Assembly (NCBI GenBank): GCA_038046385.1 | Contig: JBBSWH010000001.1 | Span: 39,382-103,381 of the forward strand | Direction of reading: 5' to 3' | Length of the DNA: 64,000 nucleotides | DNA from: Nanobdellota archaeon | Lineage (GTDB): Archaea; Nanobdellota; Nanobdellia; Woesearchaeales; GW2011-AR4 | In this document: positions 2,219 to 55,936 of the stretch, piece by piece | Layout: the number at the start of each line of letters is the position of its first letter | Numbering within the stretch: the first letter of the stretch is position 1 | Program-made: the position numbers and the translations under genes | Notes under the pieces: model-generated | What the model saw: the letters and a program-made list of their open reading frames with translations, nothing else | What the model was told of the DNA's origin: nothing | Databases searched by the model: none

Positions 2219-2239
2219 GCTCAATTAACAAATGATTAA

Positions 2240-7292: not shown

Positions 7293-7414
7293 AATATAAA
7301 TGCGGGGAACTGATGCGCCCCAACCTTTTCTTATATAAGAAAAGCTTGACCAAAAGAAGTATGCTACGCAGTTGTGAGGTAAACCTCACTAAAGAAAATA
7401 TAATGCGGGGGAAG
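7293..7414. mobile_element. Two-hairpin mini-insertion plus relic 3' end of tRNA-Leu(UAA), the displaced original tRNA flank
   Basis: aatataaatgcgggg (7293-7307) vs aatataatgcgggg (7397-7410). The core 7316-7392 aligns along its length with the reverse complement of 40129-40214. tgcgggggaag (7404-7414) equals the last 11 nt of the tRNA at 16760-16770. Confidence 0.7.
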
Positions 7415-7493
7415 CACATTCCGCCCCTATTAGAATGCGTATCTTAAATTCCCTTTCTTATTTATATATCTTTTCATGTTACGTAGGGTGCTT

Positions 7494-7967: not shown

Positions 7968-8032
7968 ATCTTAAAAAGTTACTAAGATTTATTAATAAGC
8001 TTTCCTCTAATTAGTGTCTTCTTAAGAATTAA

Positions 8033-8941: not shown

Positions 8942-9147
8942 GATTTAACCACCTCACCACCCCTTAACTGTAGTAAATAAGGCTTGTTTTATTAATTTAT
9001 CCAAAAAATATATAAGAAAATAAGCACTGGACACCTATACGCAAAGTTTAAATACTTTTAAAATTAGGGTAGTATCAGGGTATTTCGGTATACGAAATAT
9101 CCAATTCAGTCTAAGTGGTGCGGTTTACGTAATCACTTAGACTTTTT

Positions 9148-9945: not shown

Positions 9946-10210
9946 TATATAGGAAATTTTTTTGGTATTTATAAAGAATACTGTGTTACGCCCCTTTAAT
10001 GAAGAGGTATATGCACGCTTATATTTAAAATATTTTATTTTTTAGGTTTAAATATAATAAAAATTAGGAAAAAGTTTTGGTTATAGGATAACGCCTCGGT
10101 TAAATATATTTGAAGGCCAACCATCCTCCGATTGCAAAAGCTATCAGGCCATAAGCAATAAGTCGAAGTATAAACCTTTTATCCATTCTTTTTGGGCTGT
10201 CGAGTTAGTA

Positions 10211-10609
10211 TTATCTATTAATTGAAAAAAAACTCTCACCTTTTTTATAATTTTTTACCCTTGTAAACTTTTTTGAGTTTGGATAAATTTTAGTAAATTG
10301 ACAATCATCTATATTATCTCCCTTAAATGATATAGTTATCTCATCATAACTGCTCGGATATGTCTTAATTGCAAACTTATGAGCTGTTTCAAGATTATCT
10401 AATGCTATATGAAAAAGCCACTCAATAACAGCTTTTCCCCCCCATTTTTCTTTGATATAATCTTCGTAATCTTTAGTATAGGAATGTCGTTCTATTCTAT
10501 GATTGTATTTTAGCCATTTTCGAGGTTCATCTATCCATTGATGAAGTTCTTGAAAAGTCTGTCCAGTTCTACACTCACTTACTTCCATATGAAATTTTAG
10601 AGACGGCAT
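10211..10609 (-). CDS. Hypothetical protein
   Basis: 132-aa ORF, SD ggagg upstream, His-rich N-terminal half (ELHQWIDEP..HRIERH). Confidence 0.5.
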   Translation of the reverse strand: MPSLKFHMEVSECRTGQTFQELHQWIDEPRKWLKYNHRIERHSYTKDYEDYIKEKWGGKAVIEWLFHIALDNLETAHKFAIKTYPSSYDEITISFKGDNIDDCQFTKIYPNSKKFTRVKNYKKGESFFSINR

Positions 10610-10756
10610 CTTTAATCCTCCTAAACATTTAATTTTTTGGGCTGAAAAAGTAAAAATGAAGGGATAGTTTTTCGTTAGAATAACTTACCTTACCTTTTCC
10701 AGCTTTCCAACATAAAACCATTATAAAACATATTATAAAAGCTTTGCGACATAAAA

Positions 10757-11002
10757 TTAAGGATAATCAATACAAGACTCAGTATTTTCATCAGTACATC
10801 TATTAAATCGTCTACATGCTAAAAACCAGCCTTTGAAGAACCCATATTTCTTAAGTGCCAATATTGCATGATTTGAGCATGAAGGATAAAACCTACAAAT
10901 TATGTTTCTTTTTTTATTAAAATTTCTACCAATTTTCCCGTGCCATACTTTCTTTATAAAAAATATTGATATTAAAATCAAGAGATTATTTTTTCTTCTC
11001 AT
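10757..11002 (-). CDS. yidD: YidD-like membrane protein insertion efficiency factor
   Basis: CRFYPSCSNHAILALKKYGFFKGWFLACRRFNRC matches the YidD CRF-P-(T/S)CS...G...R..RC pattern. Confidence 0.65.
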   Translation of the reverse strand: MRRKNNLLILISIFFIKKVWHGKIGRNFNKKRNIICRFYPSCSNHAILALKKYGFFKGWFLACRRFNRCTDENTESCIDYP

Positions 11003-11294
11003 ATATACTCACTTCTTCAGTGTAATTCTGTGAACCACATTCTGGACATCTTCGTAAATTATCAAGTGAATCTTTAGATGCACCTACATTTCTTTGAGCT
11101 TGTAGAGCTGCACCAGAATTACAACAACACGCATTAGACATTTGGTTTAAAGCAGCAACACCTTTAGCACTTTCAATTTCTTTTTCTCTTTCTGATAAAG
11201 AATGCCACACCTTACCACATTCATTACATTTTCGTTTAAACTCTTTTACGTGCTTGTTCTTATCAAAATCCGCTTCCGAAATCTTTTTGCTCAT
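10986..11294 (-). CDS. Zinc-ribbon protein
   Basis: CNECG ... CPECG cysteine pairs; 102 aa. Confidence 0.55.
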   Translation of the reverse strand: MSKKISEADFDKNKHVKEFKRKCNECGKVWHSLSEREKEIESAKGVAALNQMSNACCCNSGAALQAQRNVGASKDSLDNLRRCPECGSQNYTEEVSIYEKKK

Positions 11295-11318
11295 TTTTCT
11301 AAAGATTATTTAAATATT

Positions 11319-11849
11319 TCAACACATACCATTGGTAAAACTTATCAGTTCTTTGGCATCAGCAGTGTATAGATATATATCTTTGCAAGATTTCATTAAT
11401 TCTAACCTGACGACTGGGATACCACCATCACATTCTTTTGTTTTGGATAGGCACTTATAATAGGCTTGATCTTTTGTTAAAACTTTTGGAGCTTTTGAGG
11501 TTTCATTAACCTTTTGCTGTGGCATGAAGTTAGAAATGAGAATCATAGCAGCTATAACTATAATGCCCCACAAAAAGAATTTTTTATAGTTTGGGTTTTT
11601 CTTATCTATTAAATTTGTTTTACTTACGCTAACATTTTTATTAATTTTATGTTCTCTTGACTTAAAATTCAATTTCTCTTTAAAGAACTTTCGTGATGGT
11701 GGAAGTATCACAAGTCCTATTGCGAGTGAGGTAGTTCCAACAATAAAAGATGAATCTGAAAAATTTCCTAAAGAAGCCAAAATAAAGATAATCCCAAAAA
11801 TCCAGCTAAAAACTCCTCCTAAAGTAATTTTTTTAACATCTTCTACCAT
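11319..11849 (-). CDS. Membrane protein
   Basis: 176-aa ORF with 3 TM and a Cys-containing C-terminal domain. Confidence 0.5.
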   Translation of the reverse strand: MVEDVKKITLGGVFSWIFGIIFILASLGNFSDSSFIVGTTSLAIGLVILPPSRKFFKEKLNFKSREHKINKNVSVSKTNLIDKKNPNYKKFFLWGIIVIAAMILISNFMPQQKVNETSKAPKVLTKDQAYYKCLSKTKECDGGIPVVRLELMKSCKDIYLYTADAKELISFTNGMC

Positions 11850-11881
11850 TAACTTACCACCACACTTCTATATCCATTTTT

Positions 11882-12556
11882 CTACGTTGACCTTAAGTTA
11901 ATATTAAATATATCGTTAATCTCACTATTGGAAGCAACAACTATTTTCAAGTCTTCAAGGTTTTCTGGAATATCAAACAAAACAAAACCTCTTTTTTTAA
12001 TGCCTGGGTTTATAGCATCACCAAACCCTGAAAATAAGGTAAAACTCTCTCCATTGTAAGTTCCAGTAGCATCATTATCACTAAGAAACTCCCTTCCTTG
12101 AATATCCTCTAATTTCATTAAAGTATTATCAAACTTAGCTGCCTTTTTAGCTAAATTTTCAACTTCTACTTCTATAATTAAATAAGTGCCGTCGGCTACT
12201 TGCATGCCACTAAACATTCCACCAGAAAAAGATTTTAGTTCTTTATTGCTTAAAAATGTCCACTTAAAATCTCCGGCCACTATTTCATCTTTAAAATTGT
12301 ACGTTACATTTCCAAAGAATTTTTTCTTACAATCTATAATATTGCTTACAATAGTAGATTCATCAGGGCAGACATATTGTATTTTTTCCACAATCTCAGT
12401 TTTAATTTCAACCTTTGGTGGACAAGAATTACAATCAAGCTCTTGGCACTTTGTAGAAGGACAGGCAGTTTCTTTGCATTCTGGACACTGAGGAACTGCT
12501 TGAGTACAAGCAGTAATAAACAACAATCCTATCAACAATAAAGCATAAACTTTCAA
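11882..12556 (-). CDS. Lipoprotein with Cys-rich linker and DUF4352-like beta-sandwich domain
   Basis: Signal plus lipobox FITAC; CPECKETACPSTKCQELDCNSCPP; C-terminal ..GTYLIIEVEVENLAKKA.. pattern. Confidence 0.6.
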   Translation of the reverse strand: MKVYALLLIGLLFITACTQAVPQCPECKETACPSTKCQELDCNSCPPKVEIKTEIVEKIQYVCPDESTIVSNIIDCKKKFFGNVTYNFKDEIVAGDFKWTFLSNKELKSFSGGMFSGMQVADGTYLIIEVEVENLAKKAAKFDNTLMKLEDIQGREFLSDNDATGTYNGESFTLFSGFGDAINPGIKKRGFVLFDIPENLEDLKIVVASNSEINDIFNINLRST

Positions 12557-12618
12557 ATTAAATACCCCCTAATAGATAATTTTTGAAGATGGCTTTAAAT
12601 AATTTTCTATCCTCTTAA

Positions 12619-12663
12619 TATTACGCTGATTATCACGCTTTCTTTTATTCTGATTATTACGCT
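12619..12663. promoter_or_regulatory. Direct-repeat operator candidate upstream of the wHTH gene
   Basis: ctgattatcacgct (12626-12639) and ctgattattacgct (12650-12663), plus attacgct at 12619-12626. Confidence 0.4.
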
Positions 12664-12671
12664 ATAGATAT

Positions 12672-12926
12672 ATGGATGACGAGTTAAAAATATTCTTAGC
12701 AAGAAGCAAGCTTAGAAGTAAGATTTTACAAGAGTTAGAAGAAAAGCCTCAAATAGCTTCTTTTTTGGCAAAAAAGATTAAAAAGCATAGAGAAGTTATA
12801 AGCAGGGTATTTTTGGATTTACAGAGAAAAAAGTTAGCTGTATGCACAAATTCAAAAGATTCAAGCTTTAGGTATTACAAAATAACAGAGCAAGGCAAAA
12901 AGGCACTTAAAGAGTTAAGAGTTTGA
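12672..12926 (+). CDS. Winged-helix transcriptional regulator (ArsR/TrmB-like)
   Basis: 84 aa; ..RSKILQELEEKPQIASFLAKKIKKHREVISRVFLDLQRKKL.. Confidence 0.6.
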   Translation: MDDELKIFLARSKLRSKILQELEEKPQIASFLAKKIKKHREVISRVFLDLQRKKLAVCTNSKDSSFRYYKITEQGKKALKELRV

Positions 12927-13093
12927 ATTTTCAAAATCTGACAAAAATTTCTGACAAGCGGTAGCTTTACCATATAAGAGATAAAAAATTCTACCCCCAC
13001 CCCCTATATGAAGTAATACTACTTCTATATTCTACATCCTATATAAGTCAGCACAGAAGTATTTATATAGTAGGCTTACTTTATTTATGAAAT

Positions 13094-13291
13094 ATGGAAG
13101 AACTAAAAGGAAAGAAAGTTAAGATTGTAACACTCAATTACTTCGAGACTAAGCAGAATGGGTTAATCAAAAGGCAGTACAGGGTTAGTATTGCTCCTAA
13201 GATTATAGAAAGCTTAGAACTGAAGGCTCACGATAAGCTCAAAGTATGGGTTAACAAGGCAAAGAAGCAGATTAGAATGACAAAATTATAA
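13094..13291 (+). CDS. AbrB/SpoVT-like small DNA-binding protein (tentative)
   Basis: 65 aa; RVSIAPKIIESLELKAHDKLKV resembles the AbrB/MazE swapped-hairpin motif. Confidence 0.45.
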   Translation: MEELKGKKVKIVTLNYFETKQNGLIKRQYRVSIAPKIIESLELKAHDKLKVWVNKAKKQIRMTKL

Positions 13292-13334
13292 TCATAAGAC
13301 TGCTGGCATAGACCAGCAGCTTGGAGTAAACAAA

Positions 13335-13496
13335 ATGGCTTGCGACCAATTAGATACTCCACAGGAAGCAGTTCCTGTGGCTATTAAAAACCTTTCTGGA
13401 CAAGAAAAGGTATTCAAAGACCAAAAGGCTCAGGATAGATTTGAGTACCTTGTAAGAACAAGGAATAAGGTTTGGGCAATTGTAAAATTCAAATAG
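13335..13496 (+). CDS. Small hypothetical protein (53 aa)
   Basis: Manual ORF MACDQLDTPQEAVPVAIKNLSGQEK...; below the track cutoff. Confidence 0.3.
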   Translation: MACDQLDTPQEAVPVAIKNLSGQEKVFKDQKAQDRFEYLVRTRNKVWAIVKFK

Positions 13497-13779
13497 AATT
13501 TTTTTTATTTTTCTTTTTATCCGATTCTTTTGTAAAATATGTTAGTAACTGTCCCATCATTGAATTTGGACTTATTCTTAGGGCGAGGCTTTCTAATGGG
13601 TATTTTTGGGCATTTAATGAAGATTTAAACTTTCCAATGTCTGATTTTGGGCCAGAGCTTCTTTCTCTTGAAATTTGAGCAAGCAGTTCTTTCCAATTTG
13701 AAGTTCGTTCTCTCCACTTCCTTCCTTCTGCTGCTATCTCAGGATTACCCTTTGGATTATTCCACCTTTTACCTATCAT
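13489..13779 (-). CDS. Hypothetical protein
   Basis: 96-aa ORF; competes with an antisense 68-aa ORF. Confidence 0.35.
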   Translation of the reverse strand: MIGKRWNNPKGNPEIAAEGRKWRERTSNWKELLAQISRERSSGPKSDIGKFKSSLNAQKYPLESLALRISPNSMMGQLLTYFTKESDKKKNKKNSI

Positions 13780-14057
13780 TTTTTGGTTTTGGAAGATAGT
13801 TCGTTTGGTTATTATCGATAAGTTATGAATATAAGTATTATAATCATTCTTCCTTCTTCAATAGGGCTATTATTTTTCGGTTTAGGGCTTCAAGTTGGTT
13901 AAGTTTATACCTTACCCAATCCTCAAAGTTTAACCCTTCTTCTTTTTCTTCCATTTTATAAATAATATAATTATTATATTATTGAGATGTATACTATGTA
14001 CTACGTACTGAACGTGAGATAGTGTCAAATAACATTGATGTTATGATAATATCCATA

Positions 14058-14462
14058 TTATTGTTCATGTAGTTTTGGTTTAACTTTATTCAATAAATAT
14101 TCAAATTCTTCATCTGAAAGGTCTTTTCCAAAGTTTTCGTAAAACCCTTGTTTTTGACCTTCAAAGAATTTTCTGTCTCTCTCAATAGCCTGTAGAGCGT
14201 TCTTCAAATATGGAATCCAATTTGAGTTAAGTTCTACTTTGATTTCTTCTATGCGACTTCTGCCTTTTAGTTTCTCTAATTCTTCACTCTCTTCTCTCAG
14301 TTCTTGCTGTCTTTTTTCTATTTCCTTATCAGTAAACAAATTGCTATCAATCAGTTTTCTGATATATTGAGATCTGTCCTTGCCAAGAATATTCATTCTG
14401 GCTATCTGCTCTGGTGTTAGCGTTATGCTGACATTAACAAATCTTGAGTGGTATTGTTTCAT
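14058..14462 (-). CDS. Ribbon-helix-helix (CopG-like) protein with coiled-coil tail
   Basis: VSITLTPEQIARMNILGKDRSQYIRKLID RHH pattern. Confidence 0.6.
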   Translation of the reverse strand: MKQYHSRFVNVSITLTPEQIARMNILGKDRSQYIRKLIDSNLFTDKEIEKRQQELREESEELEKLKGRSRIEEIKVELNSNWIPYLKNALQAIERDRKFFEGQKQGFYENFGKDLSDEEFEYLLNKVKPKLHEQ

Positions 14463-14655
14463 TTTTCTCCAGTTTTTTACGAATAAGTGAGCTTAAGTCT
14501 ATGCCGAGTTGTAAAGCCTCATGTTTTAATTGCAGTAACCTATCGGCTTCTAAACGAAAAGCTAAAAATTCTGTCTTCTTTTGGATATGATTGGATTTTT
14601 TCTCAAAGCCAGGGTGATAGTATTGTTTTTGCATAGTTATCACTACGTTATACAT
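14434..14655 (-). CDS. RHH-like small protein
   Basis: LAFRLEADRLLQLKHEALQLGIDLSSLIRKKLE. Confidence 0.5.
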   Translation of the reverse strand: MYNVVITMQKQYYHPGFEKKSNHIQKKTEFLAFRLEADRLLQLKHEALQLGIDLSSLIRKKLEKNETIPLKIC

Positions 14656-14780
14656 ACCTTTTTATTTCAGAATTAGCTACCCTTTATTGCTTAGGTTTGG
14701 AAGCTAATTCCTTACTTAATTCTTGCTCTGCCTCCTCTGTCAAGGAGGCTATTCTTTTAATTATATTATTATAAACTAAG

Positions 14781-14921
14781 TTAGGATTTTTCATTTTCTT
14801 TTACTGCCATTTGAATTAGTTGAAAAACAAGGTTGCTAACTGACCTACCATCTTTTTTTGCTTTATTTTTTATCTTTTCAGCAAGTTCATCTGAAATAAT
14901 AGTTTGGAGTTTTTTACTCAT
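14781..14921 (-). CDS. RHH (CopG-like) small protein, 46 aa
   Basis: Manual ORF MSKKLQTIISDELAEKIKNKAKKDGRSVSNLVFQLIQMAVKENEKS. Confidence 0.45.
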   Translation of the reverse strand: MSKKLQTIISDELAEKIKNKAKKDGRSVSNLVFQLIQMAVKENEKS

Positions 14922-15010
14922 GCTAATCGAAATGAGTATAGTGGATTAATATATAAAGAGTGATTCAATGGCAAGTTATTTGTAACACTTCGCACAAGTG
15001 CTATATTTTT

Positions 15011-15406
15011 CTAACCGGTTAGAAACCGGTTTCCACTTTTTGAAAAGTATGGGAAAGATGGAACGCGAAATCGATTTCGCAAATTGAAGCAATATGGCAA
15101 AAACTCAAATGCCAACCGGTTGGCGAACCTAAAACAATATGGTAGGGTGGGACCTGAGCATTTGACAAACCGGTTTGTCAAATTGCAACCGGTTGCAAAA
15201 TTTGAAGAAATATGGGGATGGGACTGAAAATCGATTTTCAAGATTGAAACAATACGGAATTAGGTTGCTTATAATATCTCTTTTGGTGCCGATTTTCTGG
15301 AAATCGATTTCCACTTCCAAAAATTGTTTTCGCTTTTGTCGAATCGATTCGACAAAACCAAGTAAAAATGTCAAACCGGTTTGCCATTTTGTCAAATCGA
15401 TTTTAC
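15011..15406. repeat. Array of 11 short palindromes (AAAYCGRTTT cores) interleaved with 5 TTGAARNAATATGG motifs
   Basis: Perfect palindromes at 15011-22, 15022-33, 15065-80, 15111-24, 15163-80, 15183-98, 15225-40, 15299-312, 15337-54 and 15372-83; one imperfect at 15391-406. Confidence 0.85.
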
Positions 15407-15428
15407 ATTTACTAAATATCTAAATAAA

Positions 15429-16703
15429 CTAATTCTTTAATTCCTTAATCTCCTTCTGTAGTTCTGAAACTATCTTAAACAACTTTTGTACCTCTGGGAT
15501 CTGCATAAAATTATCATATTTTTGCATTTGATCTTGTATCTTTGTTCTATCTAAGGGCCTCTTGCAGTTGTTGCACGTTTCAGAAGTAAACCCATTTTTT
15601 ACATTACAGAATAAGCAGTCTTTGATTTTTGGCTGCAATTCCTTATATTTTTCATCCTGAACTAATCCTCTTTTTACCAGCTCAATCTTAAAGGATTCAT
15701 CATGCTGGCTTAAATCATAAGTTTTGAGCTGTTTGTTAGACGTCCATCTTGCAGCGTGCTGTATTTCTAAATCACTATCCCCTCTTAATCTCCGGAAAGT
15801 TACTCCATTTCGCTTTAGGGAATAAGCAGTCACGGGCTTTTCTATTCCAAGATATTTACAGGCTGTATGTATCTTGTTGTTGATGTTTTTAGGCTTAAAT
15901 TGTTGCCCAAATTCTCTGTCACTCAAATTGACGAATAGAAAGGCATCTTTATTCTTCTTAAGCGGATGTTGCTCTAACCATTTTATAAGATAAGGATAGC
16001 TATCTATACATTGCAAAAATCCTGTTCCTTCTTTTCCATGCTCAGAAATCCATATCTTAGCATAGTTATCATAAAGCTCGACATCTTTTACTTTTGTGTA
16101 AAGAATTTCTTGTGGTCTTCCTAAACTTTCCAATGACAAAGTTAGATAAAACTGCATCCTTGGATCATTAGAAAAGAAACTAACTACTTTTTCAAACTCT
16201 TCAAACGTAACCTTATCACCCCTCCTTTTTTCTTTGCTTTTGTCAATTTTAGGGCTTAAATGCCTAACGGGATATGGCACAAGTGTATCGTCAATTCTTT
16301 CTCTTTCATCCTTTTCAGGAAAAAGCACCTTCCACATATGCTTTAGGTCTCTTATGAAATCAGATTTGCTCTTTGGAGACTTATAGGAAGTATGCATAAA
16401 AGATACAATGCTGTTGACATCCTCTCTTTCCAAATCCTTTAAGTCCTTGTCAGTTGAATTGCAAATAAGCCTCATACTCATAAGAAGCCGATTTCGCCTA
16501 ACATAGCTAAGATCTTTAGCTTCAAAAACTTTGAATAGCTGCTCGAAATAGACTAAATTATCCTTATTCTTGCAGTAGTACTTACCTCTCTTAGTTACTT
16601 CCTGCCTTTCTTCAGGCTTTACAACAAATTGATCCAGGTTTTTCTTAAATCTCCCGTAAATCCTTTCATTATGGTATATATCGTCTTCTGCCATGGCTAT
16701 CAT
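15429..16703 (-). CDS. Tyrosine recombinase/integrase with C-terminal zinc ribbon
   Basis: 424 aa; HAARWTS...LKTYD (HxxR...Y catalytic box); CLFCN..CNNC; lies directly downstream of the tRNA-Leu 3' end. Confidence 0.8.
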   Translation of the reverse strand: MIAMAEDDIYHNERIYGRFKKNLDQFVVKPEERQEVTKRGKYYCKNKDNLVYFEQLFKVFEAKDLSYVRRNRLLMSMRLICNSTDKDLKDLEREDVNSIVSFMHTSYKSPKSKSDFIRDLKHMWKVLFPEKDERERIDDTLVPYPVRHLSPKIDKSKEKRRGDKVTFEEFEKVVSFFSNDPRMQFYLTLSLESLGRPQEILYTKVKDVELYDNYAKIWISEHGKEGTGFLQCIDSYPYLIKWLEQHPLKKNKDAFLFVNLSDREFGQQFKPKNINNKIHTACKYLGIEKPVTAYSLKRNGVTFRRLRGDSDLEIQHAARWTSNKQLKTYDLSQHDESFKIELVKRGLVQDEKYKELQPKIKDCLFCNVKNGFTSETCNNCKRPLDRTKIQDQMQKYDNFMQIPEVQKLFKIVSELQKEIKELKN

Positions 16704-16759
16704 TCTCCTGCTTCCGACTTATATACTCTTGTTAAACAACGCATTCATTTAGAAAATAG

Positions 16760-16878
16760 GTGCGGGGGAAGGGATTCGAACCCCCGAATCCACTAAGGAA
16801 CAGGATAGCTTATCTCGCTTACAGCGCGAGTGTTCCATCTTAAGTCCTGCGCGTTTGGCCAGGCTTCGCTACCCCCGC
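16760..16878 (-). tRNA. tRNA-Leu(UAA), class II, ~32-nt intron in the anticodon loop
   Basis: GCGGGGG/CCCCCGC+A acceptor, CAGGA-CTTAAGA..[intron]..TCCTG, long variable arm, GGGGG-TTCGAAT-CCCTT. Confidence 0.8.
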
Positions 16879-35708: not shown

Positions 35709-35816
35709 TTTTGCCATCGTTCGCATGTAATGTTTTAGATTATTACAAAAATTCCTCATGGAACCTCCTTTTTGTTAAAATATTTTATAGAAAATGCTCA
35801 CAATTTGATGGCAAAA
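35709..35816. repeat. Clamped intergenic element, copy A (10-bp terminal inverted repeat)
   Basis: ttttgccatc...gatggcaaaa; subterminal gttcgcatgtaatg and aaaatgctcacaatt; right end abuts the stop codon of the 35817 gene. Confidence 0.75.
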
Positions 35817-36212
35817 TCAATAATACCTTCTTCTTCTGCCGGAGTCTTCCTGTTCTCCCCTTGCAATTCCTTCAAGGTTCACAAGCCTTTGGTTGATTGC
35901 ATCAAGGGAAGCCTTGACAGCGTCAAGCTTGCTTGATATCACTTCAAGATTTTTTGAGTTTATGTAATTGTCATTGCTTGGCATTGAAGGCTGGAAAGAC
36001 GGCTGCGATGGGAAATTCTGCGAAGGCTGGAATGAAGGATACTTCTGAAAAGGCTGCTGTGTCTGCGGCATTTCAAGCCCCATTCCCAGGTCAGGAGAAG
36101 GCCCTTGGCTGTTCATGTCCAATCCCAAATCCTTGTCAAGCCCGAGGTCTTTGCCTATGTCAGAGAAATCATCTTTTTTCTTCCAAAATGCAAGCTTGCT
36201 GAAAACGCCCAT
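35817..36212 (-). CDS. Hypothetical protein: amphipathic N-terminus, P/Q/S-rich linker, C-terminal coiled coil
   Basis: MGVFSKLAFWKKK...; QPSFQPS repeats; ..LDAVKASLDAINQRLVNLE.. Confidence 0.55.
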   Translation of the reverse strand: MGVFSKLAFWKKKDDFSDIGKDLGLDKDLGLDMNSQGPSPDLGMGLEMPQTQQPFQKYPSFQPSQNFPSQPSFQPSMPSNDNYINSKNLEVISSKLDAVKASLDAINQRLVNLEGIARGEQEDSGRRRRYY

Positions 36213-39659: not shown

Positions 39660-39771
39660 AATGAAAGGAACGCATTCAACTTTTTGCAAAAAACTTGACC
39701 AAAAGCATGAAAGTGCTATATTTGCTTCGCAAAATAGCACGAGAGGGCTACAATGAAAGGAACGCATTCAA
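39660..39771. mobile_element. Two-hairpin mini-insertion flanked by a 20-bp direct repeat duplicating the rpl37e start
   Basis: aatgaaaggaacgcattcaa at 39660-39679 and 39752-39771; the 72-bp insert has hairpins ctttttgcaaaaag and gtgctat..tttgcttcgcaaa..atagcac. Confidence 0.8.
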
Positions 39772-39986: not shown

Positions 39987-40118
39987 GCGGAGGTGCCGGA
40001 GTGGCCAAACGGGATAGGCTTAGGCGAGGCATCTTTTTGGTGTAAAGAGCCGAAAGGCAATGACTTTGAGACACCTATTAGCTTAGTGCTTACGCAGGTT
40101 CGAATCCTGTCCTCCGCA
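39987..40118 (+). tRNA. tRNA-Leu(UAG), class II, ~45-nt anticodon-loop intron
   Basis: GCGGAGG/CCTCCGC+A, ATAGG-CTTAGG[intron]A-CCTAT, long variable arm, GCAGG-TTCGAAT-CCTGT. Confidence 0.75.
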
Positions 40119-40231
40119 TTCATTTTCATTAGTGGATTCACAATCCACGACTGCGTAGCATGGTTTCTTTGGTCAAGCTTTCTTTTTATAAAGAAAGGTT
40201 GGTGGGAACCCTTACTCCGCATTCATTTTCA
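40112..40231. mobile_element. Two-hairpin mini-insertion flanked by a 17-bp direct repeat duplicating the tRNA-Leu(UAG) 3' end
   Basis: ctccgcattcattttca at 40112-40128 and 40215-40231; hairpins gtggatt/aatccac and ctttctttttataaagaaag. Confidence 0.75.
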
Positions 40232-41088: not shown

Positions 41089-41163
41089 TACTTAAATAAA
41101 AAAATGTCAGAAATCAAAAGATTTCTGAGCATGCTCGTAAATCTTTTGATTTACGACAGGCAA

Positions 41164-41310
41164 TTAAGCCTTTCCAAGAATCCTGAAAACCTTTGTGCTG
41201 CATACACCGCATGTGCCTTTCATTGCCTTCATGCCGTTCTTCATTATGACTTCTTTTCCTTCTTTGATTTCGACTTCTTTCCTGCACTTCATGCATCTTC
41301 CTCTTGCCAT
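41164..41310 (-). CDS. Small zinc-ribbon protein (DUF5679-like), 48 aa
   Basis: Manual ORF MARGRCMKCRKEVEIKEGKEVIMKNGMKAMKGTCGVCSTKVFRILGKA; SD gaggtga. Confidence 0.55.
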   Translation of the reverse strand: MARGRCMKCRKEVEIKEGKEVIMKNGMKAMKGTCGVCSTKVFRILGKA

Positions 41311-41435
41311 TTGATTCACCTCGAGTTCTAATATAATATAGGATTTTAAGCCTATGAGTAAATCATATAAGATGTTATATATAAAGATTTGGGTTTTTTA
41401 CTCATAAACTGCCCTAGTTTGCTACTATTAAGAAA

Positions 41436-41649
41436 TTATTCTACAATCTCAAGAGTGGGGGTTGCCATCGGTTCGCATGTAATGCTTAGGCGATAAAGCG
41501 TCCGTTCCCCGTAAGGGACTCAACTTGAGCATAGCTCAAGTGAGCAATTGAAGCTTTGCTTCAATTCGCTTCCCCCTTGTCCGCTAGCTGTAGATTTAAA
41601 AAAAGCTCACAAATTGATGGCAACCACAAATCACTCTACAATCTCAAGA
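41436..41649. mobile_element. Clamped intergenic element, copy B (166 bp), with duplication of the HAD gene 3' end
   Basis: TIR ggttgccatc (41460-69)/gatggcaacc (41616-25). Perfect 15-bp repeat tctacaatctcaaga at 41440-54 and 41635-49. Confidence 0.75.
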
Positions 41650-42302
41650 AGCTCTTTGATGTCATTTATCTCATAGTCTGCGCTTGAGCCGGATGCAGAA
41701 GGATTTCCGTATTTTGCGAAGCAAGTTGACATTCCCAATGACTTTGCGCCTTTTATATCCCGCTCTGGCCTGTCTCCAACCATTAAGCACTCGTGCGGCT
41801 TTACATTCAGCTTTTTGAAGGCGACCTTAAACGGCTTTGTGCTTGGCTTGAACTCTTTCGTATCATCAAACGTAACAACGACATCAAATATATGGTTTAT
41901 TTTCATGGCAACAAGTCTTATCCATGCCTTTAATCGCGGAGCGTCAGATACAATAGCCAGTTTTATGCCTTTTCTTTTCATTTCAAAAAGGACCTTGCTT
42001 ACATTCGGATACGGCTCAAGGAATCCACTTCTTACTCTCCTGTAGGCCACGATGCCGCTTGCAAGTATTTCATAGTTTATTTCCTTTGTAACCTTCTTCA
42101 GAAACTTCTGGAATATGGTTTTTTCTTCCATTCCGTATTCATTATACAAGTCGAAAAGAATCTTCATGCCTTTTTCCTTGTCCATATCCAATCCTGCGCC
42201 TATCATCGCAGTCATTGCCGCATCGCAGCTCATTTTCTTCATTGTCATGAAGTCTATCAAGGTGTTGTCAAGATCGAAGATAATTGCTTTTATCATAATC
42301 AA
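41631..42302 (-). CDS. HAD-superfamily hydrolase
   Basis: IIFDLDNTL motif I, SDAP.., VGDRPERDI. Confidence 0.8.
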   Translation of the reverse strand: MIMIKAIIFDLDNTLIDFMTMKKMSCDAAMTAMIGAGLDMDKEKGMKILFDLYNEYGMEEKTIFQKFLKKVTKEINYEILASGIVAYRRVRSGFLEPYPNVSKVLFEMKRKGIKLAIVSDAPRLKAWIRLVAMKINHIFDVVVTFDDTKEFKPSTKPFKVAFKKLNVKPHECLMVGDRPERDIKGAKSLGMSTCFAKYGNPSASGSSADYEINDIKELLEIVE

Positions 42303-42350
42303 AAGAAAAACAGAATAAGTTTAAAATTGTTTTGATGAAAAAAGAAAAAA

Positions 42351-42785
42351 TTAGCTAAGGTTACCTTTCCCTTTCTTTGGCTTAACTCTCGGGTTTACTC
42401 CCACTGCCATTTCGGTTAGCCATTCCACTATTCTTCTTAGCTGCTTGCTATGCGGATGAATACCATCATTGCTTAATTTTGCGCTTACATATCCGGTTAC
42501 ATCCCCGTTTATATGTGCTGGACCCAAATAAGTATGTCTTCCGTCTGCTCGTGTAACAACAACCCTATCTTTTTCTCTTTGAATATTGGATATATTTTGA
42601 TTATAGCTAACTATAGAAGATGCAGCGTCGCTTATTTCATGATTCCTTGCTTGAGGAATATCTCTTGGCGCACCAGCAACTGCAAATTCAAGTCCATGAG
42701 TAGGGTTGAACATAATCTGCGCCCCTGCTTTAGTCTCTCTGTATAACTTACTAACATAGTCTATAACCTGATTTGCATAACTCAT
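42351..42785 (-). CDS. Hypothetical protein
   Basis: 144-aa ORF; Lys/Ile-poor composition compared with its neighbours. Confidence 0.5.
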   Translation of the reverse strand: MSYANQVIDYVSKLYRETKAGAQIMFNPTHGLEFAVAGAPRDIPQARNHEISDAASSIVSYNQNISNIQREKDRVVVTRADGRHTYLGPAHINGDVTGYVSAKLSNDGIHPHSKQLRRIVEWLTEMAVGVNPRVKPKKGKGNLS

Positions 42786-42911
42786 ATTAAAATACCCTCC
42801 AAATTTTTATAAACGGAATAAACCTTTATTTATAAACTTTGTTTTTATCATTACATAATAGATAAACCAATATCAGCAAACTTTAAAAACAAACTATTCT
42901 TTTGAAACGCT

Positions 42912-43982
42912 ATGGAAACGCTTGAATCACTGAAATGGCTCAAGGACAGAAATCTGTATGACCTTTCTTACAGTGTATCTACATCCCTGAAAAAAGTCTT
43001 TACGCCGTGTTTAGGGGTAAAGGACGAAAAAATGCTGATAGTCGGAGACATAGGCTATGAAAACAGAAACGTTGCGGCTGTGATGTCCGGAGCTTATTAC
43101 CTTGCGGCGCAGCAGATGAAGCTAGATGCCAAATTAATATTCCAAAGCGTAAAATCGAGGGGAGATGTTTCTGACGATGATGTTGTGCAGGGACTTTCAG
43201 AATTAAAAGCAGGCAATATCGTTATCCTTAACATGTCAGACAAGCTTGGAAACATTCAGGAGCTTGGAAAAAGTTTCAGGAGATGGATTGCAAAAAAGAA
43301 CCATCGCTTCATATCGGCAATGAGCCTTGGAGATTTGGCAACAAGCAACATTGAACTGATAACAAAAGCGATTGATGTTAATTACAGGCCGCTGCAGGTT
43401 CAGCATGAGGAAATAAGGAAAAAGATGGATGCTGCAAAAGAGATTCATATAACAACACCTGCAGGAACGGATTTGCATTACAACAAAGAGGGAATAAAAG
43501 CACTAAAAGCAGACGGGAATTACACAATGCCCGGCACCGGAGGAAACCTGCCGGCAGGAGAGGTATACTCGCCGCCAAACGGCAAGAAGATTGAAGGCAA
43601 GGTTGTAATTGACGGAAGCTCAAGAACGCATGAGCACACGCTATTGATAAGAAAGCCGATTGAGCTTACAATCAAAGAGGGAAATATTGTTGACATCAAG
43701 GGCGGGGAAGAGGCAAAACAGCTTGAGAATACGCTGAAGTGGGCTGCATCAGTTGCAAAAAACCCCGGCAATGTAAGAAGAGTATGCGAGCTCGGAATCG
43801 GATTAAACCCAAATGCGTCAATCATAGGCGCGATGATAATTGATGACAAGACGCTCGGAACAGCACATATAGGAATCGGCTCAAATTACTGGTTTGGCGG
43901 AAATATATATGCAATAATCCACCTAGACCAGGTTTTTAAGAATCCCACTATTTATTTAGACGGAGCAAAGCTAAAAATCTGA
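42912..43982 (+). CDS. Aminopeptidase, M29 (AmpS/PepS-like) family
   Basis: GTDL......GNLPAGEVY..P......G.VVIDGS, LGTAHIGIGSNY. Confidence 0.75.
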   Translation: METLESLKWLKDRNLYDLSYSVSTSLKKVFTPCLGVKDEKMLIVGDIGYENRNVAAVMSGAYYLAAQQMKLDAKLIFQSVKSRGDVSDDDVVQGLSELKAGNIVILNMSDKLGNIQELGKSFRRWIAKKNHRFISAMSLGDLATSNIELITKAIDVNYRPLQVQHEEIRKKMDAAKEIHITTPAGTDLHYNKEGIKALKADGNYTMPGTGGNLPAGEVYSPPNGKKIEGKVVIDGSSRTHEHTLLIRKPIELTIKEGNIVDIKGGEEAKQLENTLKWAASVAKNPGNVRRVCELGIGLNPNASIIGAMIIDDKTLGTAHIGIGSNYWFGGNIYAIIHLDQVFKNPTIYLDGAKLKI

Positions 43983-43989
43983 TAGTATG

Positions 43990-44110
43990 GCATAGCATCC
44001 TAAGGTCAAAATTCAATTCAGAACATAATCAACTGCGTTCAGGGGGACGCCCCCTACGGGGCATGAACGATACTTAAAGTAACACATTAAGAATTTTGAA
44101 GATGCTATGC
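43990..44110. repeat. Clamped intergenic element, copy E
   Basis: gcatagcatc/gatgctatgc termini; inner stem cgttca (44036-41)/tgaacg (44064-69) around a C/G-run core. Confidence 0.65.
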
Positions 44111-44315
44111 ATTGTTTTCTTCCTTAACTATCATCCATTTTGGCAGGTCAACATTCGGATATTTCTTGTCAGAGCCTTCAAAATACGTTCCTTTTTCTTT
44201 TTCCATGCAATTCATTGAGCATAGTAAATATATAAAGATTGTTTAGTAAGATAGAGTGACTACACACGGCAGAATCAGGAAAGTATTAAAAGAGGATACT
44301 TAATGTTATACTGAA

Positions 44316-46850: not shown

Positions 46851-46938
46851 GGGCCCATAGCTCAGCCTGCTTAGAGCACAAGACTCTTAAGAATTTGGAG
46901 TTATCTTGGGGTCAGGGGTTGAAATCCCCTTGGGCCCA
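46851..46938 (+). tRNA. tRNA-Lys(CUU) with ~13-nt anticodon-loop intron
   Basis: GGGCCCA/TGGGCCC+A, GCTC..GAGC, CAAGA-CTCTTAA[intron]-TCTTG, AGGGG-TTGAAAT-CCCCT. Confidence 0.75.
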
Positions 46939-47035
46939 CTTATTTTTCTATCCGTGCAATAAAATTGCACTTGATTCCGCACTCAACTGACGGAACAGTT
47001 GGTTCGACATCCCCTTGGGCCCACTTTATTTTTCT
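46924..47035. mobile_element. Two-hairpin mini-insertion flanked by a ~26-bp direct repeat duplicating the tRNA-Lys 3' end
   Basis: atccccttgggcccactt(t)atttttct at 46924-46949 and 47009-47035; hairpins gtgcaat/attgcac and caactg/cagttg. Confidence 0.8.
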
Positions 47036-51649: not shown

Positions 51650-51812
51650 GTTTTGCCGTCAATACGTGAGCATTTTCTATTAAAACATTCAACAAAAAGG
51701 AAATTGTCCTAAAAATCTGTGGATTTTTGGGAACCTAAAAATGCCTAGCATTTTTTTGTCAATGGGAATTTTTGTAATATACTAGAACATTTAATGCGAA
51801 CGACGGCAAAAC
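51650..51812. repeat. Clamped intergenic element, copy C (inverted relative to copy A)
   Basis: gttttgccgtc/gacggcaaaac termini; the reverse complement aligns with copy A (ttttgccgtcgttcgcattaaatg..., ...aaaatgctcacgtattgacggcaaaa). Confidence 0.75.
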
Positions 51813-54241: not shown

Positions 54242-55762
54242 ATGGACGAAAAGACAACAAGGAAGAGCATGAAGTATTCTGTCTATGACGGAGCTTCGTT
54301 TGCGGTGATGGAAGGCGCGACTTCTTCATTCATGACACCGTTTGCAGTTGCGTTGAACGCTTCTTTGAATTTAATAGCTGCAATGTCGTACATTCCGCAG
54401 CTGGCGGGCGCTTTTATGCAGCTGTTTGCTGCCAGAATAGTTGAAATTGTAAGAGACAGAAAGAAAATACTAGTTTACAGTTCTTTCATCCATGCATTAT
54501 TGTGGATTCCAATGCTTCTGATACCATATGCAACTCCTAATCAGAAATATTTGATTATAGTTTACATGGCTTTGCAGACAGTTGTTTCCAATTTAATGAA
54601 TCCTGTTGGAAACTCTTTCCTCGGAGATATTGTGCCAGTAAATGAACGGGGAAGATTTTTTGGGTTAAGGAACAAAGTAGTTGGATTGAGCACTTTCATT
54701 TCAGCAATAATTGCAGGATTAATCCTGAATCATTTTTCCCCTAAAAACCCAATAATTGGATTTACAATATTGTTTTCAGTTGCATTTGTTGCAAGAGCAT
54801 TATCAGGAGTTTTTAAGTTTGGAATGACAAGCCCAGAAACACAGTTTGCACATGAAGACAAATTTTCTCTTAAAGATTTTGTAAAAAGAATGAACAAGAC
54901 CAATTACGGGCATTTTGTAATCTATATGATGTTTTTCAAGTTTGCTGTAAACATAGCGTCTCCTTTTTTTGCAGTCTACATGCTGAAAGACCTTGGATTT
55001 ACTTATATCCAATTTACAATAGTCACTGCTGTTGAACTTATGGCCAGCTTTCTCACAATGGGAATGTGGGGAAAGATGATAGATGAAAAGGGAACAAAAT
55101 CTGTGTTGTATATCACTGGAATTTTAACTCCAATAGTTCCTTTTTTTTGGCTGTTTTCTGGTAACTTCTATTATATCATATTGATAGAGCTGTTTTCTGG
55201 AGTTGCATGGGCTGGCTTTAATTTAAGCACGTCAAATTTTATATTTGATGCAGTAAGGCCGGAAAACAGGGTGCGATGCATTACATATTTCAAGTTCTTT
55301 GAAGGCATTGCCTTATTCGCCGGAGCTGCTTTAGGCGGATTTCTAATAAGCCACATCCCGCATTGGATATTTTTGTCAAGCATACCTTTTGTTTTCCTCA
55401 TATCAGGAATTTTAAGGATAATCCCTGCAGTTACCATGATGCCGACACTGCACGAAGCACGCCTGATTGAACTGGACATCGGAGATTCTTTTTTCAAAAG
55501 ATTCGTCAGGGTAAAGCCAAGCGAAGGAATTGTGTTTGAGGTCATTGGAAGGTACAACAAGAATTATGTTCCTGAAAAGAAAAAAATGCAAACAAAACCT
55601 GTTGAAAAGAAACCGGAGAAAAAACCGGTTGATTACAATAAGAAACTTTTGAAGTTCATAGACAAGAGTATAACACCCAAAAGAGAAAAGCACGACCTTA
55701 CAAATGTACATGACATAGAACAGATTACAGAAGATATTGAGAAAGGGAAGCTGAAGAAATAA
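54242..55762 (+). CDS. MFS transporter with Lys/Glu-rich C-terminal tail
   Basis: 506 aa, about 12 TM, GRFFGLRN loop motif. Confidence 0.75.
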   Translation: MDEKTTRKSMKYSVYDGASFAVMEGATSSFMTPFAVALNASLNLIAAMSYIPQLAGAFMQLFAARIVEIVRDRKKILVYSSFIHALLWIPMLLIPYATPNQKYLIIVYMALQTVVSNLMNPVGNSFLGDIVPVNERGRFFGLRNKVVGLSTFISAIIAGLILNHFSPKNPIIGFTILFSVAFVARALSGVFKFGMTSPETQFAHEDKFSLKDFVKRMNKTNYGHFVIYMMFFKFAVNIASPFFAVYMLKDLGFTYIQFTIVTAVELMASFLTMGMWGKMIDEKGTKSVLYITGILTPIVPFFWLFSGNFYYIILIELFSGVAWAGFNLSTSNFIFDAVRPENRVRCITYFKFFEGIALFAGAALGGFLISHIPHWIFLSSIPFVFLISGILRIIPAVTMMPTLHEARLIELDIGDSFFKRFVRVKPSEGIVFEVIGRYNKNYVPEKKKMQTKPVEKKPEKKPVDYNKKLLKFIDKSITPKREKHDLTNVHDIEQITEDIEKGKLKK

Positions 55763-55773
55763 CTTCTTCGCTT

Positions 55774-55892
55774 AAGGTTAGCATCGGCTCAGGTTATCTG
55801 TTTTCTTATAATAGTTGACATCCCCGTAAGGGACTTCCCCCTGTCAACTTATCTGAGTTAATGAAATACCTTCGCAAATTGATGCTAACCTT
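55774..55892. repeat. Clamped intergenic element, copy D (12-bp terminal inverted repeat)
   Basis: aaggttagcatc/gatgctaacctt; inner stem gttgaca (55814-20)/tgtcaac (55842-48) around tccccgtaagggacttccccc. Confidence 0.75.
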
Positions 55893-55936
55893 CATAAAAT
55901 CTTTTCAGACCAAAAAGTATTTATTGTCCCTTTCAA

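What the first reader, a model, noticed from the sequence alone, without database searches (positions are those of the whole stretch)
41436..41649. Clamped element B duplicates the last five codons and stop codon of the HAD hydrolase gene
The 166-bp element (TIR ggttgccatc/gatggcaacc) is flanked by a perfect 15-bp repeat, tctacaatctcaaga (41440-54 and 41635-49). Extending each copy, both read on the minus strand as Leu-Glu-Ile-Val-Glu-stop (CTT GAG ATT GTA GAA TAA on the left; CTT GAG ATT GTA GAG TGA on the right, the end in use). The insertion event therefore preserved a complete C-terminus. Casposons are known to give ~14-15 bp TSDs, carry TIRs and target 3' ends of tRNA or aEF-2 genes, so a non-autonomous casposon-like derivative is one testable idea. 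An att-type recombination is another. B is also chimeric: it has A/C-type subterminal sequences but the D/E-type CCCCGTAAGGG core, plus two extra perfect hairpins (cttgagc-ata-gctcaag; aattgaagc-ttt-gcttcaatt).
Basis: partly seen in the sequence, partly recalled or inferred. Interest (0 to 1): 0.62.

Follow-up and report, generated by a model that had tools for sequence, protein, structure and literature searches.

The report
Hairpin insert duplicating a gene's end
A 166-base gene-less hairpin element landed on the last codons of a hydrolase gene in a tiny groundwater archaeon and copied about 22 bases of its target, so the gene kept an intact end; it is a real transposon scar with an unusually long duplication, not a casposon.

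Summary
A 166-bp element closed by GGTTGCCATC/GATGGCAACC lies between two direct copies of the HAD hydrolase gene's last five codons plus stop. The repeat is 15 bp perfect and 20/22 when extended. About 17 related Woesearchaeota species have the empty site: one C-terminus, then the DUF5679 promoter. Only the window's species and its sister species (L001; HAD 87.7% nt identity) carry the element and the duplication, so it is a target duplication of about 21-24 bp.

B is the ~117-nt core unit of a widespread DPANN hairpin MITE family. Full-length copies add 15-bp outer inverted repeats (GGCTCTG...AAAT, IS5/IS903-like) and make 9-bp duplications (six examples). B lacks those arms and the 9-bp duplication, so its insertion was atypical.

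In the sister species the interior lies in the opposite orientation between identical clamp arms and lacks a 50-nt two-hairpin module. This points to a later hairpin inversion and a module gain or loss.

The casposon idea is not supported. The att idea is unlikely but not excluded. B is not chimeric.

The same genome holds unrelated ORF-less mini-inserts with 17-21-bp duplications. Two of them are absent from L001, so a shared long-duplication pathway remains possible.

The parts
41628..41649 (-). Gene-proximal copy of the duplicated target. It holds the last five codons (CTT GAG ATT GVA GAG), the TGA stop (41631-41633) and 3 nt of trailer of the HAD gene. This is the end in use.
   Evidence: The C-terminus ...KELLEIVE is the norm in 74 of 120 homologues.
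41433..41454 (-). Distal relic copy of the same 22 nt, ending GAA TAA (41436-41438). It is contiguous with the native spacer and the DUF5679 promoter. It is not attached to any ORF.
   Evidence: Alignment to empty sites.
41460..41625 (+). Element B: the clamp-bounded hairpin unit (166 bp, made of a ~116-nt unit plus a 50-nt module). + is the family orientation, so the unit is antisense to HAD here.
   Evidence: No Rfam family matches.
41460..41469 (+). Left clamp arm, GGTTGCCATC.
   Evidence: All 10 clamp pairs covary across 15 copies.
41616..41625 (+). Right clamp arm, GATGGCAACC.
41507..41517 (+). Invariant family core CCCCGTAAGGG. The conserved TTCCCCC that follows it in other copies is displaced here to 41570-41576.
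41520..41569 (+). 50-nt two-hairpin module (hairpins at 41524-41540 and 41546-41566). It is absent from the orthologous copy in the sister species. It is present, nearly identical, in other family copies in the same metagenomes.
41631..42296 (-). HAD-type hydrolase gene (221 aa, TIGR02253-like).
41164..41310 (-). Downstream DUF5679 zinc-ribbon gene. Its conserved TATA region lies at about 41374-41386, some 45 nt beyond the relic copy.
35709..35816 (+). Family copy A (clamp TTTTGCCATC/GATGGCAAAA). It abuts the TGA stop of ORF 35817-36212. The site is empty in 4 relatives.
43990..44110 (-). Family copy E (clamp GCATAGCATC/GATGCTATGC). It is orthologous and in the same orientation in L001 (83.5% identity). 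The site is empty in 11 relatives. An approximately 8-9-bp duplication flanks the clamp directly.
51651..51811 (-). Family copy C (clamp TTTTGCCGTC/GACGGCAAAA). It differs from A by a compensatory change in the clamp and has a different central module.
55776..55890 (+). Family copy D (clamp GGTTAGCATC/GATGCTAACC), with a linker and decayed outer arms on both sides.

Best explanation
What B is. Element B is a copy of the ~117-nt clamp-bounded core unit of a hairpin-shaped, ORF-less mobile element family of DPANN archaea. Full-length members of the family carry this unit inside 15-bp outer inverted repeats of the IS5/IS903 type (GGCTCTG...AAAT) and make 9-bp target duplications.

The insertion. 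In the common ancestor of the window's species and its sister species, a unit without the outer arms was inserted into the last five codons of the HAD hydrolase gene. The two joints to the target lay about 21-24 nt apart. Gap filling therefore duplicated TCTTGAGATTGTAGAGTGATT(CTA).

Fate of the two copies. The copy attached to the gene still supplies Leu-Glu-Ile-Val-Glu-stop and changes only synonymously. The other copy is a dead relic in front of the DUF5679 promoter.

Later changes. The interior flipped between the two identical 10-bp clamp arms in one lineage (a hairpin inversion). A 50-nt two-hairpin module was also gained or lost.

Shown versus inferred.
- Shown: the insertion, the target origin of the repeat, its age, the family membership, the lack of outer arms and of a 9-bp duplication, and the opposite orientation.
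- Inferred: the enzyme. I take it to be the family's DDE transposase using the GG-initial clamp as pseudo-ends in an aberrant wide-stagger event.
- Inferred: why this event survived. A normal 9-bp duplication at this position would have destroyed the conserved C-terminus.
For: - Empty site. About 17 related species have the HAD stop followed directly by TT(C/A)TAAACCYCAAAGTAGCAAAT and the DUF5679 promoter. A metagenome contig in run X9 is also empty.
- Filled site in only two species. The window and L001 form a sister pair inside a well-supported 5-member clade (support 100/99), with HAD 87.7% nt identity. The three other members of that clade lack the element.
- Both filled loci have the distal copy contiguous with native downstream DNA.
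- Family architecture. The clamp-to-clamp unit is 111-121 nt in 15 copies, with an invariant CCCCGTAAGGGAC..TCCCCC core. All 10 clamp pairs are kept through double changes.
- Full-length copies. L050, L053, L065, L082, L103 and L127 have outer inverted repeats and 9-bp duplications. IS5/IS903-group elements have IRs of 15-27 bp and a DR of 9 bp (PMC3281130).
- B and its L001 orthologue have neither the outer arms nor a 9-bp repeat.
- Inversion. The interiors align at 93.1% only in opposite orientation relative to HAD. The few bases just outside the clamps did not flip (proximal junction ATTTGT versus ATTTTA).
- Both orientations are confirmed by independent assemblies: L171-L173 and contigs in X1, X4 and X6.
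- Precedents. ISH2 of Halobacterium normally makes 10-11-bp duplications but has one of 55 bp that duplicates 18 codons (PMC7002104). Hairpin loops invert recurrently in chloroplast DNA (PMC6005162).
Against: - None was found among the 10 largest window ORFs.
- Use of the clamp as pseudo-ends is conjecture.
- B's interior is more conserved between the two species (93%) than copy E (83.5%) or third codon positions (70%). A single old insertion explains this only with purifying selection or conversion from other copies.
- The two repeat copies pair crosswise between species. The window has GAGTGA proximal and GAATAA distal; L001 has GAATAA proximal and GAGTGA distal. A single origin then requires parallel G-to-A changes.
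- Only one orthologous pair shows an inversion.
- The same genome has other insert families with 17-21-bp duplications, so a different, dedicated enzyme may be responsible.
Confidence: 0.55

Rival explanations
1. B was inserted by the same, still unidentified, long-duplication machinery that made the genome's other ORF-less mini-inserts, which carry 17-21-bp duplications at tRNA 3' ends and at the rpl37e start. This could be a casposase-like or other ruler-type integrase that accepts hairpin DNA. Under this reading the hairpin unit was just an unusual cargo.
For: - Five short-range perfect repeats of at least 15 bp flank ORF-less inserts in this window.
- Two of these inserts (rpl37e, 20 bp; tRNA-Leu, 17 bp) have empty sites in L001. 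Such insertions are therefore recent and are true target duplications.
- Casposon duplications range from 14 to 35 nt, and casposons target tRNA 3' ends and one protein-gene 3' end (PMC4779613).
- IS1202-family elements make 15-17-bp or 27-28-bp duplications (bioRxiv 10.1101/2022.12.17.520857).
Against: - B shares no sequence or termini with the mini-insert families.
- The duplication lengths vary (15, 17, 20, 21, about 22, 26 nt) even within one mini-insert family. That is not what a ruler enzyme gives. Casposon TSD length is constant among related casposons (PMC4779613).
- No Cas1 or such transposase was seen. None could be searched for genome-wide.
Confidence: 0.15
2. There were two independent acquisitions at the same site, guided by homology or an att site. 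A small mobile form of the unit carrying a copy of the HAD 3' end recombined with the chromosomal HAD end separately in the two lineages. On this reading the two repeat copies were never identical.
For: - The repeat types pair crosswise between the species: GAGTGA and GAATAA swap positions.
- The GAATAA type is the native end in a 90% relative without the element (L170).
- B is more alike between the species (93%) than neutral sites are (70%).
- A tyrosine integrase is present in the window.
- A mini-insert sits in tandem next to the integrase element's att end at about 7316-7420.
Against: - The junction bases outside the clamps are alike by position, not by element end.
- The repeat starts at the same target base in both species.
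- The orientation differs, which a directional att reaction does not give without an extra inversion.
- There is no imperfect arm-type extension next to the distal copy, unlike at the tRNA mini-inserts.
- Parallel G-to-A changes are plausible in a 37% GC genome.
Confidence: 0.12
3. No transposase was involved. During replication or break repair at the HAD 3' end, the nascent strand switched to another family copy, copied its stable hairpin core, and returned about 22 nt upstream on the original template. This would leave a templated insertion flanked by a duplication.
For: - Only the hairpin core was copied, without the transposase-binding outer arms.
- The junction in L001 (GGCAACC-C-TCTT) is compatible with microhomology between the family's 2-3-nt right linker (CT/TCT) and the target TCTTGAG.
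- B's core region is nearly identical to other copies in the same metagenomes, which suggests exchange between copies.
Against: - The microhomologies are 2-3 nt and could be chance.
- Copies A and E, also arm-less, show roughly 9-bp duplications, which look transposase-made.
- No direct precedent is known to me in archaea.
Confidence: 0.13
4. The repeat is a local tandem duplication of the gene end that predates the element and is unrelated to it. The element later landed between the two copies.
For: None specific. It cannot be formally excluded with only two filled genomes.
Against: None of about 17 element-free relatives has a duplicated end. The repeat copies abut the clamps within 0-6 nt on both sides in both species.
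Confidence: 0.03

Closest known systems
MITEs derived from IS5-family, IS903-group insertion sequences
   Same: Full-length family members are ORF-less and about 150-165 bp long. They have ~15-bp terminal inverted repeats starting with GGC and 9-bp target duplications. IS903-group elements have IRs of 15-27 bp and a DR of 9 bp (PMC3281130).
   Different: B has no such termini and a duplication of about 21-24 bp. The family interior is a uniform, strongly covarying 117-nt hairpin with an invariant loop, which ordinary MITEs lack. The partner transposase was not identified here.
ISH2 of Halobacterium salinarum (non-autonomous archaeal element with variable target duplications)
   Same: It is an archaeal ORF-less element whose usual duplication is short (10-11 bp), but one copy has a 55-bp duplication that repeats 18 codons of the target gene (PMC7002104). 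This is the same kind of rare long duplication of coding sequence.
   Different: The sequence, host and size (521 bp) are unrelated. That ISH2 copy disrupts its gene, whereas B preserved the gene end.
Casposons and their tRNA- or gene-3'-end-targeted integration
   Same: They make long target duplications (14-35 nt) by staggered integration. Their targets are at 3' ends of tRNA genes or of a protein gene, and tandem arrays share one duplication (PMC4779613).
   Different: Casposons are large, encode Cas1 and PolB, and have a duplication length that is constant among related copies. B's relatives make 9-bp duplications. No Cas1 is known here.
IS1202 family (DDE elements with 15-17-bp or 27-28-bp duplications)
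   Same: It shows that DDE-type insertion can give duplications of the length seen at B and at the mini-inserts (bioRxiv 10.1101/2022.12.17.520857).
   Different: These are bacterial 1.5-kb elements with 24-26-bp IRs. There is no sequence relation, and the duplication length is fixed per subgroup.
Hairpin-associated small inversions in chloroplast non-coding DNA
   Same: A loop flanked by a short inverted repeat flips in place, recurrently, between close relatives (PMC6005162, citing Kelchner and Wendel 1996). This matches the flip of B's interior between its 10-bp clamp arms.
   Different: The genome is of a different kind. The loops there are usually much shorter than 100-146 nt.

Membership tests
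Casposon-derived non-autonomous element | A Cas1-family casposase encoded in the same genome (or in the element) | not testable with these tools
B has no ORF. The 10 largest window ORFs gave no Cas1.
Casposon-derived non-autonomous element | Target duplication of one constant length among related copies (14-15 nt in the best-studied cases) | tested here: not met
   B has about 21-24 nt. Six full-length relatives have 9 nt. Copies A and E have about 9 nt. The literature rule is from PMC4779613.
Casposon-derived non-autonomous element | Terminal inverted repeats shared with an autonomous casposon | not tested
   No casposon of this lineage was available for comparison. The family's outer repeats look IS903-like instead (PMC3281130).
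Casposon-derived non-autonomous element | Integration at the 3' end of a tRNA gene or of the aEF-2 gene | tested here: not met
   The target is the 3' end of a HAD hydrolase gene. This is only analogous.
att-type integrative element (tyrosine-integrase site-specific recombination) | An integrase able to act on it | tested here: inconclusive
   There is one tyrosine integrase at 15432-16703 (PF00589, E = 4e-7). It belongs to another element 25 kb away, and no link to B was found.
att-type integrative element (tyrosine-integrase site-specific recombination) | Fixed orientation of the element relative to the att core | tested here: not met
   The orientation is opposite in the window and in L001/L171-L173 while the repeats keep their direction.
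att-type integrative element (tyrosine-integrase site-specific recombination) | The flanking repeat is element-borne, so the two copies can differ from the start | tested here: inconclusive
   The GAGTGA and GAATAA types pair crosswise between the species. Parallel G-to-A change explains it equally well.
IS5/IS903-type hairpin MITE family of DPANN archaea | Conserved ~117-nt clamp-bounded unit with the CCCCGTAAGGGAC..TCCCCC core and covarying stems | tested here: met
   B and its L001 orthologue align with 13 other copies. All 10 clamp pairs show double changes.
IS5/IS903-type hairpin MITE family of DPANN archaea | ~15-bp outer terminal inverted repeats starting with GGC | tested here: not met
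   These are present in L050, L053, L065, L082, L103, L127 and L145. They are absent at B in both species.
IS5/IS903-type hairpin MITE family of DPANN archaea | 9-bp target duplication | tested here: not met
   There is no 9-bp repeat next to B's clamps. A repeat of about 21-24 bp is found instead.
IS5/IS903-type hairpin MITE family of DPANN archaea | A partner DDE transposase in the genome | not testable with these tools
No IS was found in 1.3 Mb of fetched loci.

The most novel reading that the evidence does not exclude
The ~117-nt clamp-bounded hairpin is itself the mobile or functional module, independent of the IS903-like arms. It would spread as a folded single-stranded (DNA or RNA) hairpin by a pathway that gives target duplications of variable length (9 to about 24 nt). 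It would preferentially survive on gene ends, can flip in place, and can swap its central module. This pathway may be the same one that creates the 17-21-bp-duplication mini-inserts at tRNA ends in this genome. That would be a new kind of archaeal mobile element rather than a degenerate MITE.
Probability: 0.15. Interest if true: 0.7.

Novelty: new variant of a known kind. Interest (0 to 1): 0.4.

Why it matters
- **Gene density.** The case shows, with before-and-after sequences, how a very gene-dense DPANN genome tolerates insertions. Only events that straddle a gene boundary and duplicate enough target to rebuild that boundary survive. A 22-bp duplication rescued a conserved C-terminus that a 9-bp one would have destroyed.
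- **Annotation.** It explains pseudo-stop and relic codons downstream of genes. It also explains why some neighbouring genes now end inside mobile hairpins (copies D and E).
- **Mobility and function of the unit.** The arm-less unit, its high conservation between species and its flip raise a question about the hairpin core. It may have a life of its own, either mobile or functional (for example a terminator or insulator between HAD and DUF5679).
- **Scope.** The finding refines the picture of an undescribed but widespread MITE family. It does not open a new category.

Tried and rejected
- **Known RNA families.** Rfam gave nothing at gathering thresholds. A relaxed scan of 41300-41800 also gave nothing at the element; its single hit lies outside it in the DUF5679 upstream spacer.
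- **tRNA search.** ARAGORN found no tRNA, although the window's tRNAs carry introns.
- **BHB splice motif.** The clamp is an uninterrupted 10-bp helix. The outer GAGUG/CACUC pairing leaves a 6x2 internal loop, not two 3-nt bulges (reading). I rejected this idea.
- **Repeat as converted outer arms.** I compared the repeat with the outer-arm consensus and found no similarity. Rejected.
- **Metagenome scan.** Only 12 of 120 loci were true family members.
- **Family copies in relatives.** A regex search of about 25 related species' loci (±10 kb around HAD) found none.
- **Autonomous element.** I searched all fetched loci for a long element with GGC... ends. The only candidate, in L089, was two adjacent hairpin copies.
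- **Closer relatives.** P0002 and P0004 (92% and 89% relatives) gave gene calls but no DNA.
- **L171.** The apparent extra DNA at tRNA-Leu is a scaffold gap of Ns.
- **Sequencing runs.** Only DNA contig runs were on offer, so I obtained no RNA evidence and no read-level test of flip heterogeneity.
- **Promoter and terminator scan.** The bacterial-type scan was uninformative for an archaeon.

Full report
**Observation**

- The clamp arms GGTTGCCATC (41460-41469) and GATGGCAACC (41616-41625) bound a 166-bp element.
- A perfect 15-bp direct repeat, TCTACAATCTCAAGA, lies at 41440-41454 and 41635-41649.
- The repeat extends to 22 nt with two mismatches, at 41433-41454 and 41628-41649.
- On the minus strand both copies read Leu-Glu-Ile-Val-Glu-stop. 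The right copy (GAG TGA) ends the 221-aa HAD ORF. The left copy (GAA TAA) is attached to nothing.
- In shuffled windows, repeats of at least 13 bp within 400 bp number 0-3. The window has seven, five of them at least 15 bp.
- The element folds far better than shuffles on either strand (z = -5.7 and -4.8).
- It matches no Rfam family.

**It is an insertion with a target duplication**

The HAD protein has thousands of close homologues in Woesearchaeota/Nanoarchaeota, and ...KELLEIVE is the usual C-terminus.
- In about 17 related species with the same neighbour, the HAD stop is followed directly by TT(C/A)TAAACCYCAAAGTAGCAAAT... and the TATA region of a DUF5679 gene. There is one C-terminus and no element.
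- A contig in run X9 gives another empty site.
- Only the window and one other species have the element. That species is represented by L001 and by three further independent assemblies, L171-L173, whose HAD-DUF5679 spacer is identical.
- In both filled species the distal repeat copy runs on into the native spacer.
- In the HAD tree, the window and L001 are sisters inside a well-supported five-member clade (support 100/99). The other three members lack the element and have other neighbours.
- HAD is 87.7% identical in DNA between the two species, and 70% at third codon positions. The insertion is therefore old.
- Comparing filled and empty sites puts the duplicated target at TCTTGAGATTGTAGAGTGATT, possibly extended by CTA. 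That is 21-24 nt.

**What the element is**

The window holds four more clamp-bounded elements: 35709-35816, 43990-44110 (minus strand), 51651-51811 (minus strand) and 55776-55890. A metagenome scan, once chance hits were filtered out, gave twelve further members.
- In 15 copies the clamp-to-clamp unit is 111-121 nt long.
- The core CCCCGTAAGGGAC..TCCCCC is invariant.
- All ten clamp pairs are kept through changes on both sides.
- Full-length copies carry the unit inside a further ~15-bp inverted repeat (GGCTCTGTCCYAAAT, GGCTCTGGTGAAAAT, GGCTCTGTAGAAAGT and similar). A 12-13-nt left linker and a 2-3-nt right linker connect the two.
- Full-length copies are flanked by 9-bp duplications: CTTGATTAG, CAAAACTAA, CTACTAACA, TACTTATA(C/A), GTTTAT(T/C)TT and CTTCAAAAG.
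- Ends starting with GGC, IRs of 15-27 bp and 9-bp duplications are the signature of the IS903 group of the IS5 family (PMC3281130).
- Earlier notes of this scan reached the same family assignment independently. I verified the termini and the duplication length, but not the transposase.

Arms of the B type together with the CCCCGTAAGGG core are the family standard (L053, L082, L127). Other copies in the same metagenomes carry the two-hairpin module almost letter for letter.

**What is unusual about B**

B and its orthologue have no outer repeats, no linkers and no 9-bp repeat. The long repeat begins 0-6 nt from the clamps.

Copies A and E are also arm-less. Their sites are empty in relatives: 4 relatives for A and 11 for E. 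Both show only about 8-9-bp, decayed, duplications next to the clamp.

So arm-less units do insert, and B alone has a long duplication.

At this position a 9-bp duplication would have replaced the conserved C-terminus. That is what happened at two other copies:
- Copy D's decayed outer arm now encodes the last codons and stop of the MFS gene.
- The small protein next to copy E now stops inside the clamp.

A wide-stagger event is therefore the kind that selection would let through. Halobacterium ISH2 gives a precedent. It normally makes 10-11-bp duplications, but one copy has a 55-bp duplication that repeats 18 codons (PMC7002104).

**The flip**

Relative to HAD, the interior of the element is inverted between the two species.
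- The interiors align at 93.1% (8 mismatches in 116) only when one is reverse-complemented.
- The window copy has an extra 50 nt at 41520-41569.
- The bases just outside the clamps resemble each other by position (TGATTTGT| versus TAAATTTTA|), not by element end. The inversion is therefore confined to the segment between the identical 10-bp arms.
- Both forms are backed by several assemblies.
- Hairpin-associated inversions of this kind are well known in chloroplast DNA (PMC6005162).

**Open points**

- B is more alike between the species than copy E (83.5%) or than neutral sites.
- The repeat types pair crosswise. GAGTGA is proximal in the window and distal in L001; GAATAA is the reverse. GAATAA is also the native end in the 90% relative L170.
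- Parallel G-to-A changes, together with constraint on the element or conversion from other copies, can explain both points. So can two homology-guided acquisitions. I rate the second explanation lower.

**Context: other long duplications**

The window has four other ORF-less inserts of 59-86 nt with perfect flanking repeats of 17-21 bp. They lie at the 3' ends of tRNA-Val, tRNA-Leu and tRNA-Lys and at the rpl37e start.
- L001 has the empty site for two of them, so these are recent true target duplications.
- They form their own sequence families, unrelated to B.
- One copy sits in tandem at the att end of an element with a tyrosine integrase.
- Their duplication lengths vary within a family. 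This argues against a ruler enzyme such as a casposase, whose duplication length is constant among related casposons (PMC4779613).
- Whether B used the same pathway cannot be decided here.

**Limits**

I could not test for Cas1, a DDE transposase or further integrases.
- I obtained no RNA data and no raw reads for this stretch.

**Verdict**

The casposon reading is not supported, and the att reading is unlikely. B is an arm-less core unit of an IS903-like hairpin MITE family with an atypically long target duplication. It is older than the split of two sister species and has since flipped in place.

Noticed in passing
window 55745-55910: Copy D keeps a linker (CTTCTTCGCTTAA) and decayed outer arms. 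Its left arm (GGGAAGCTGAAGAAATAA) now encodes the last codons and the stop of the MFS transporter gene 54242-55762. The gene therefore ends inside the mobile element.
   Followed up: partly
window 43980-44140; L001 2700-2860: Copy E sits between the convergent stops of the M29 peptidase gene and a 28+-aa small protein. The small protein now ends ...KEENNA* with its TAG inside the clamp. In relatives with the empty site it ends ...EEE* 1-8 nt from the peptidase stop. The flanks suggest an 8-9-bp duplication (ATTGTTTG/ATTATTCT).
   Followed up: partly
window 39660-39771 and 40112-40231; L001 5420-6360: The 72-nt insert at the rpl37e start (20-bp repeat) and the 86-nt insert behind tRNA-Leu(UAG) (17-bp repeat) are both absent from the sister species L001. 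L001 has exactly one copy of each repeat. These are clean before-and-after pairs for long target duplications.
   Followed up: yes
window 7316-7420: A Leu-type mini-insert lies directly beside the distal att-like end (CCCCCGCATTATATT) of the tyrosine-integrase element at 7404-16770. It is followed by a second CCCCGCATTTATATT. This is a tandem arrangement sharing one repeat, as seen for tandem casposons or integrative elements.
   Followed up: partly
window 2239-2350, 46916-47035, 40190-40231: At the tRNA-associated mini-inserts, the bases just upstream of the distal repeat imitate the tRNA T-arm (for example GTTCACATCT versus the native GTTCAAATCT). The similarity therefore extends, imperfectly, beyond the perfect repeat.
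   Followed up: no
L012 4960-5090, L020 3440-3520, window 41104-41160: Another small palindromic element family (ATGTCAAAAAT...GAGCATG...ATTTTCGACAT) is inserted in the HAD-DUF5679 spacer of two relatives. A look-alike lies just downstream of the DUF5679 gene in the window.
   Followed up: no
L011, L016, L018, L042, L012 (about 100 nt downstream of the HAD stop): Several relatives carry 35-70-nt GC-rich hairpin inserts immediately before the Shine-Dalgarno sequence GAGGTG of the DUF5679 gene. Each has an approximately 8-nt repeat of TTTGAGG/ATCGAGG.
   Followed up: no
window 42303-42911 versus L001 3920-4000: The window has about 530 extra bases with a 144-aa ORF (42351-42785) between the divergent M29 peptidase and HAD genes. 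L001 has only 81 nt there.
   Followed up: no
L089 3290-3370 and 4740-4935: Two hairpin-family copies follow the stops of two adjacent paralogous genes, with outer repeats TGCAATGGC.../...GCCATTGCA. This is another case of landing right behind stop codons.
   Followed up: no
window 35709-35816 versus 51651-51811: Copies A and C share arms and a clamp that differs by one compensatory pair (CATC/GATG versus CGTC/GACG). Their central modules are entirely different and neither has the CCCCGTAAGGG core. The centre of the unit behaves like an exchangeable cassette.
   Followed up: partly
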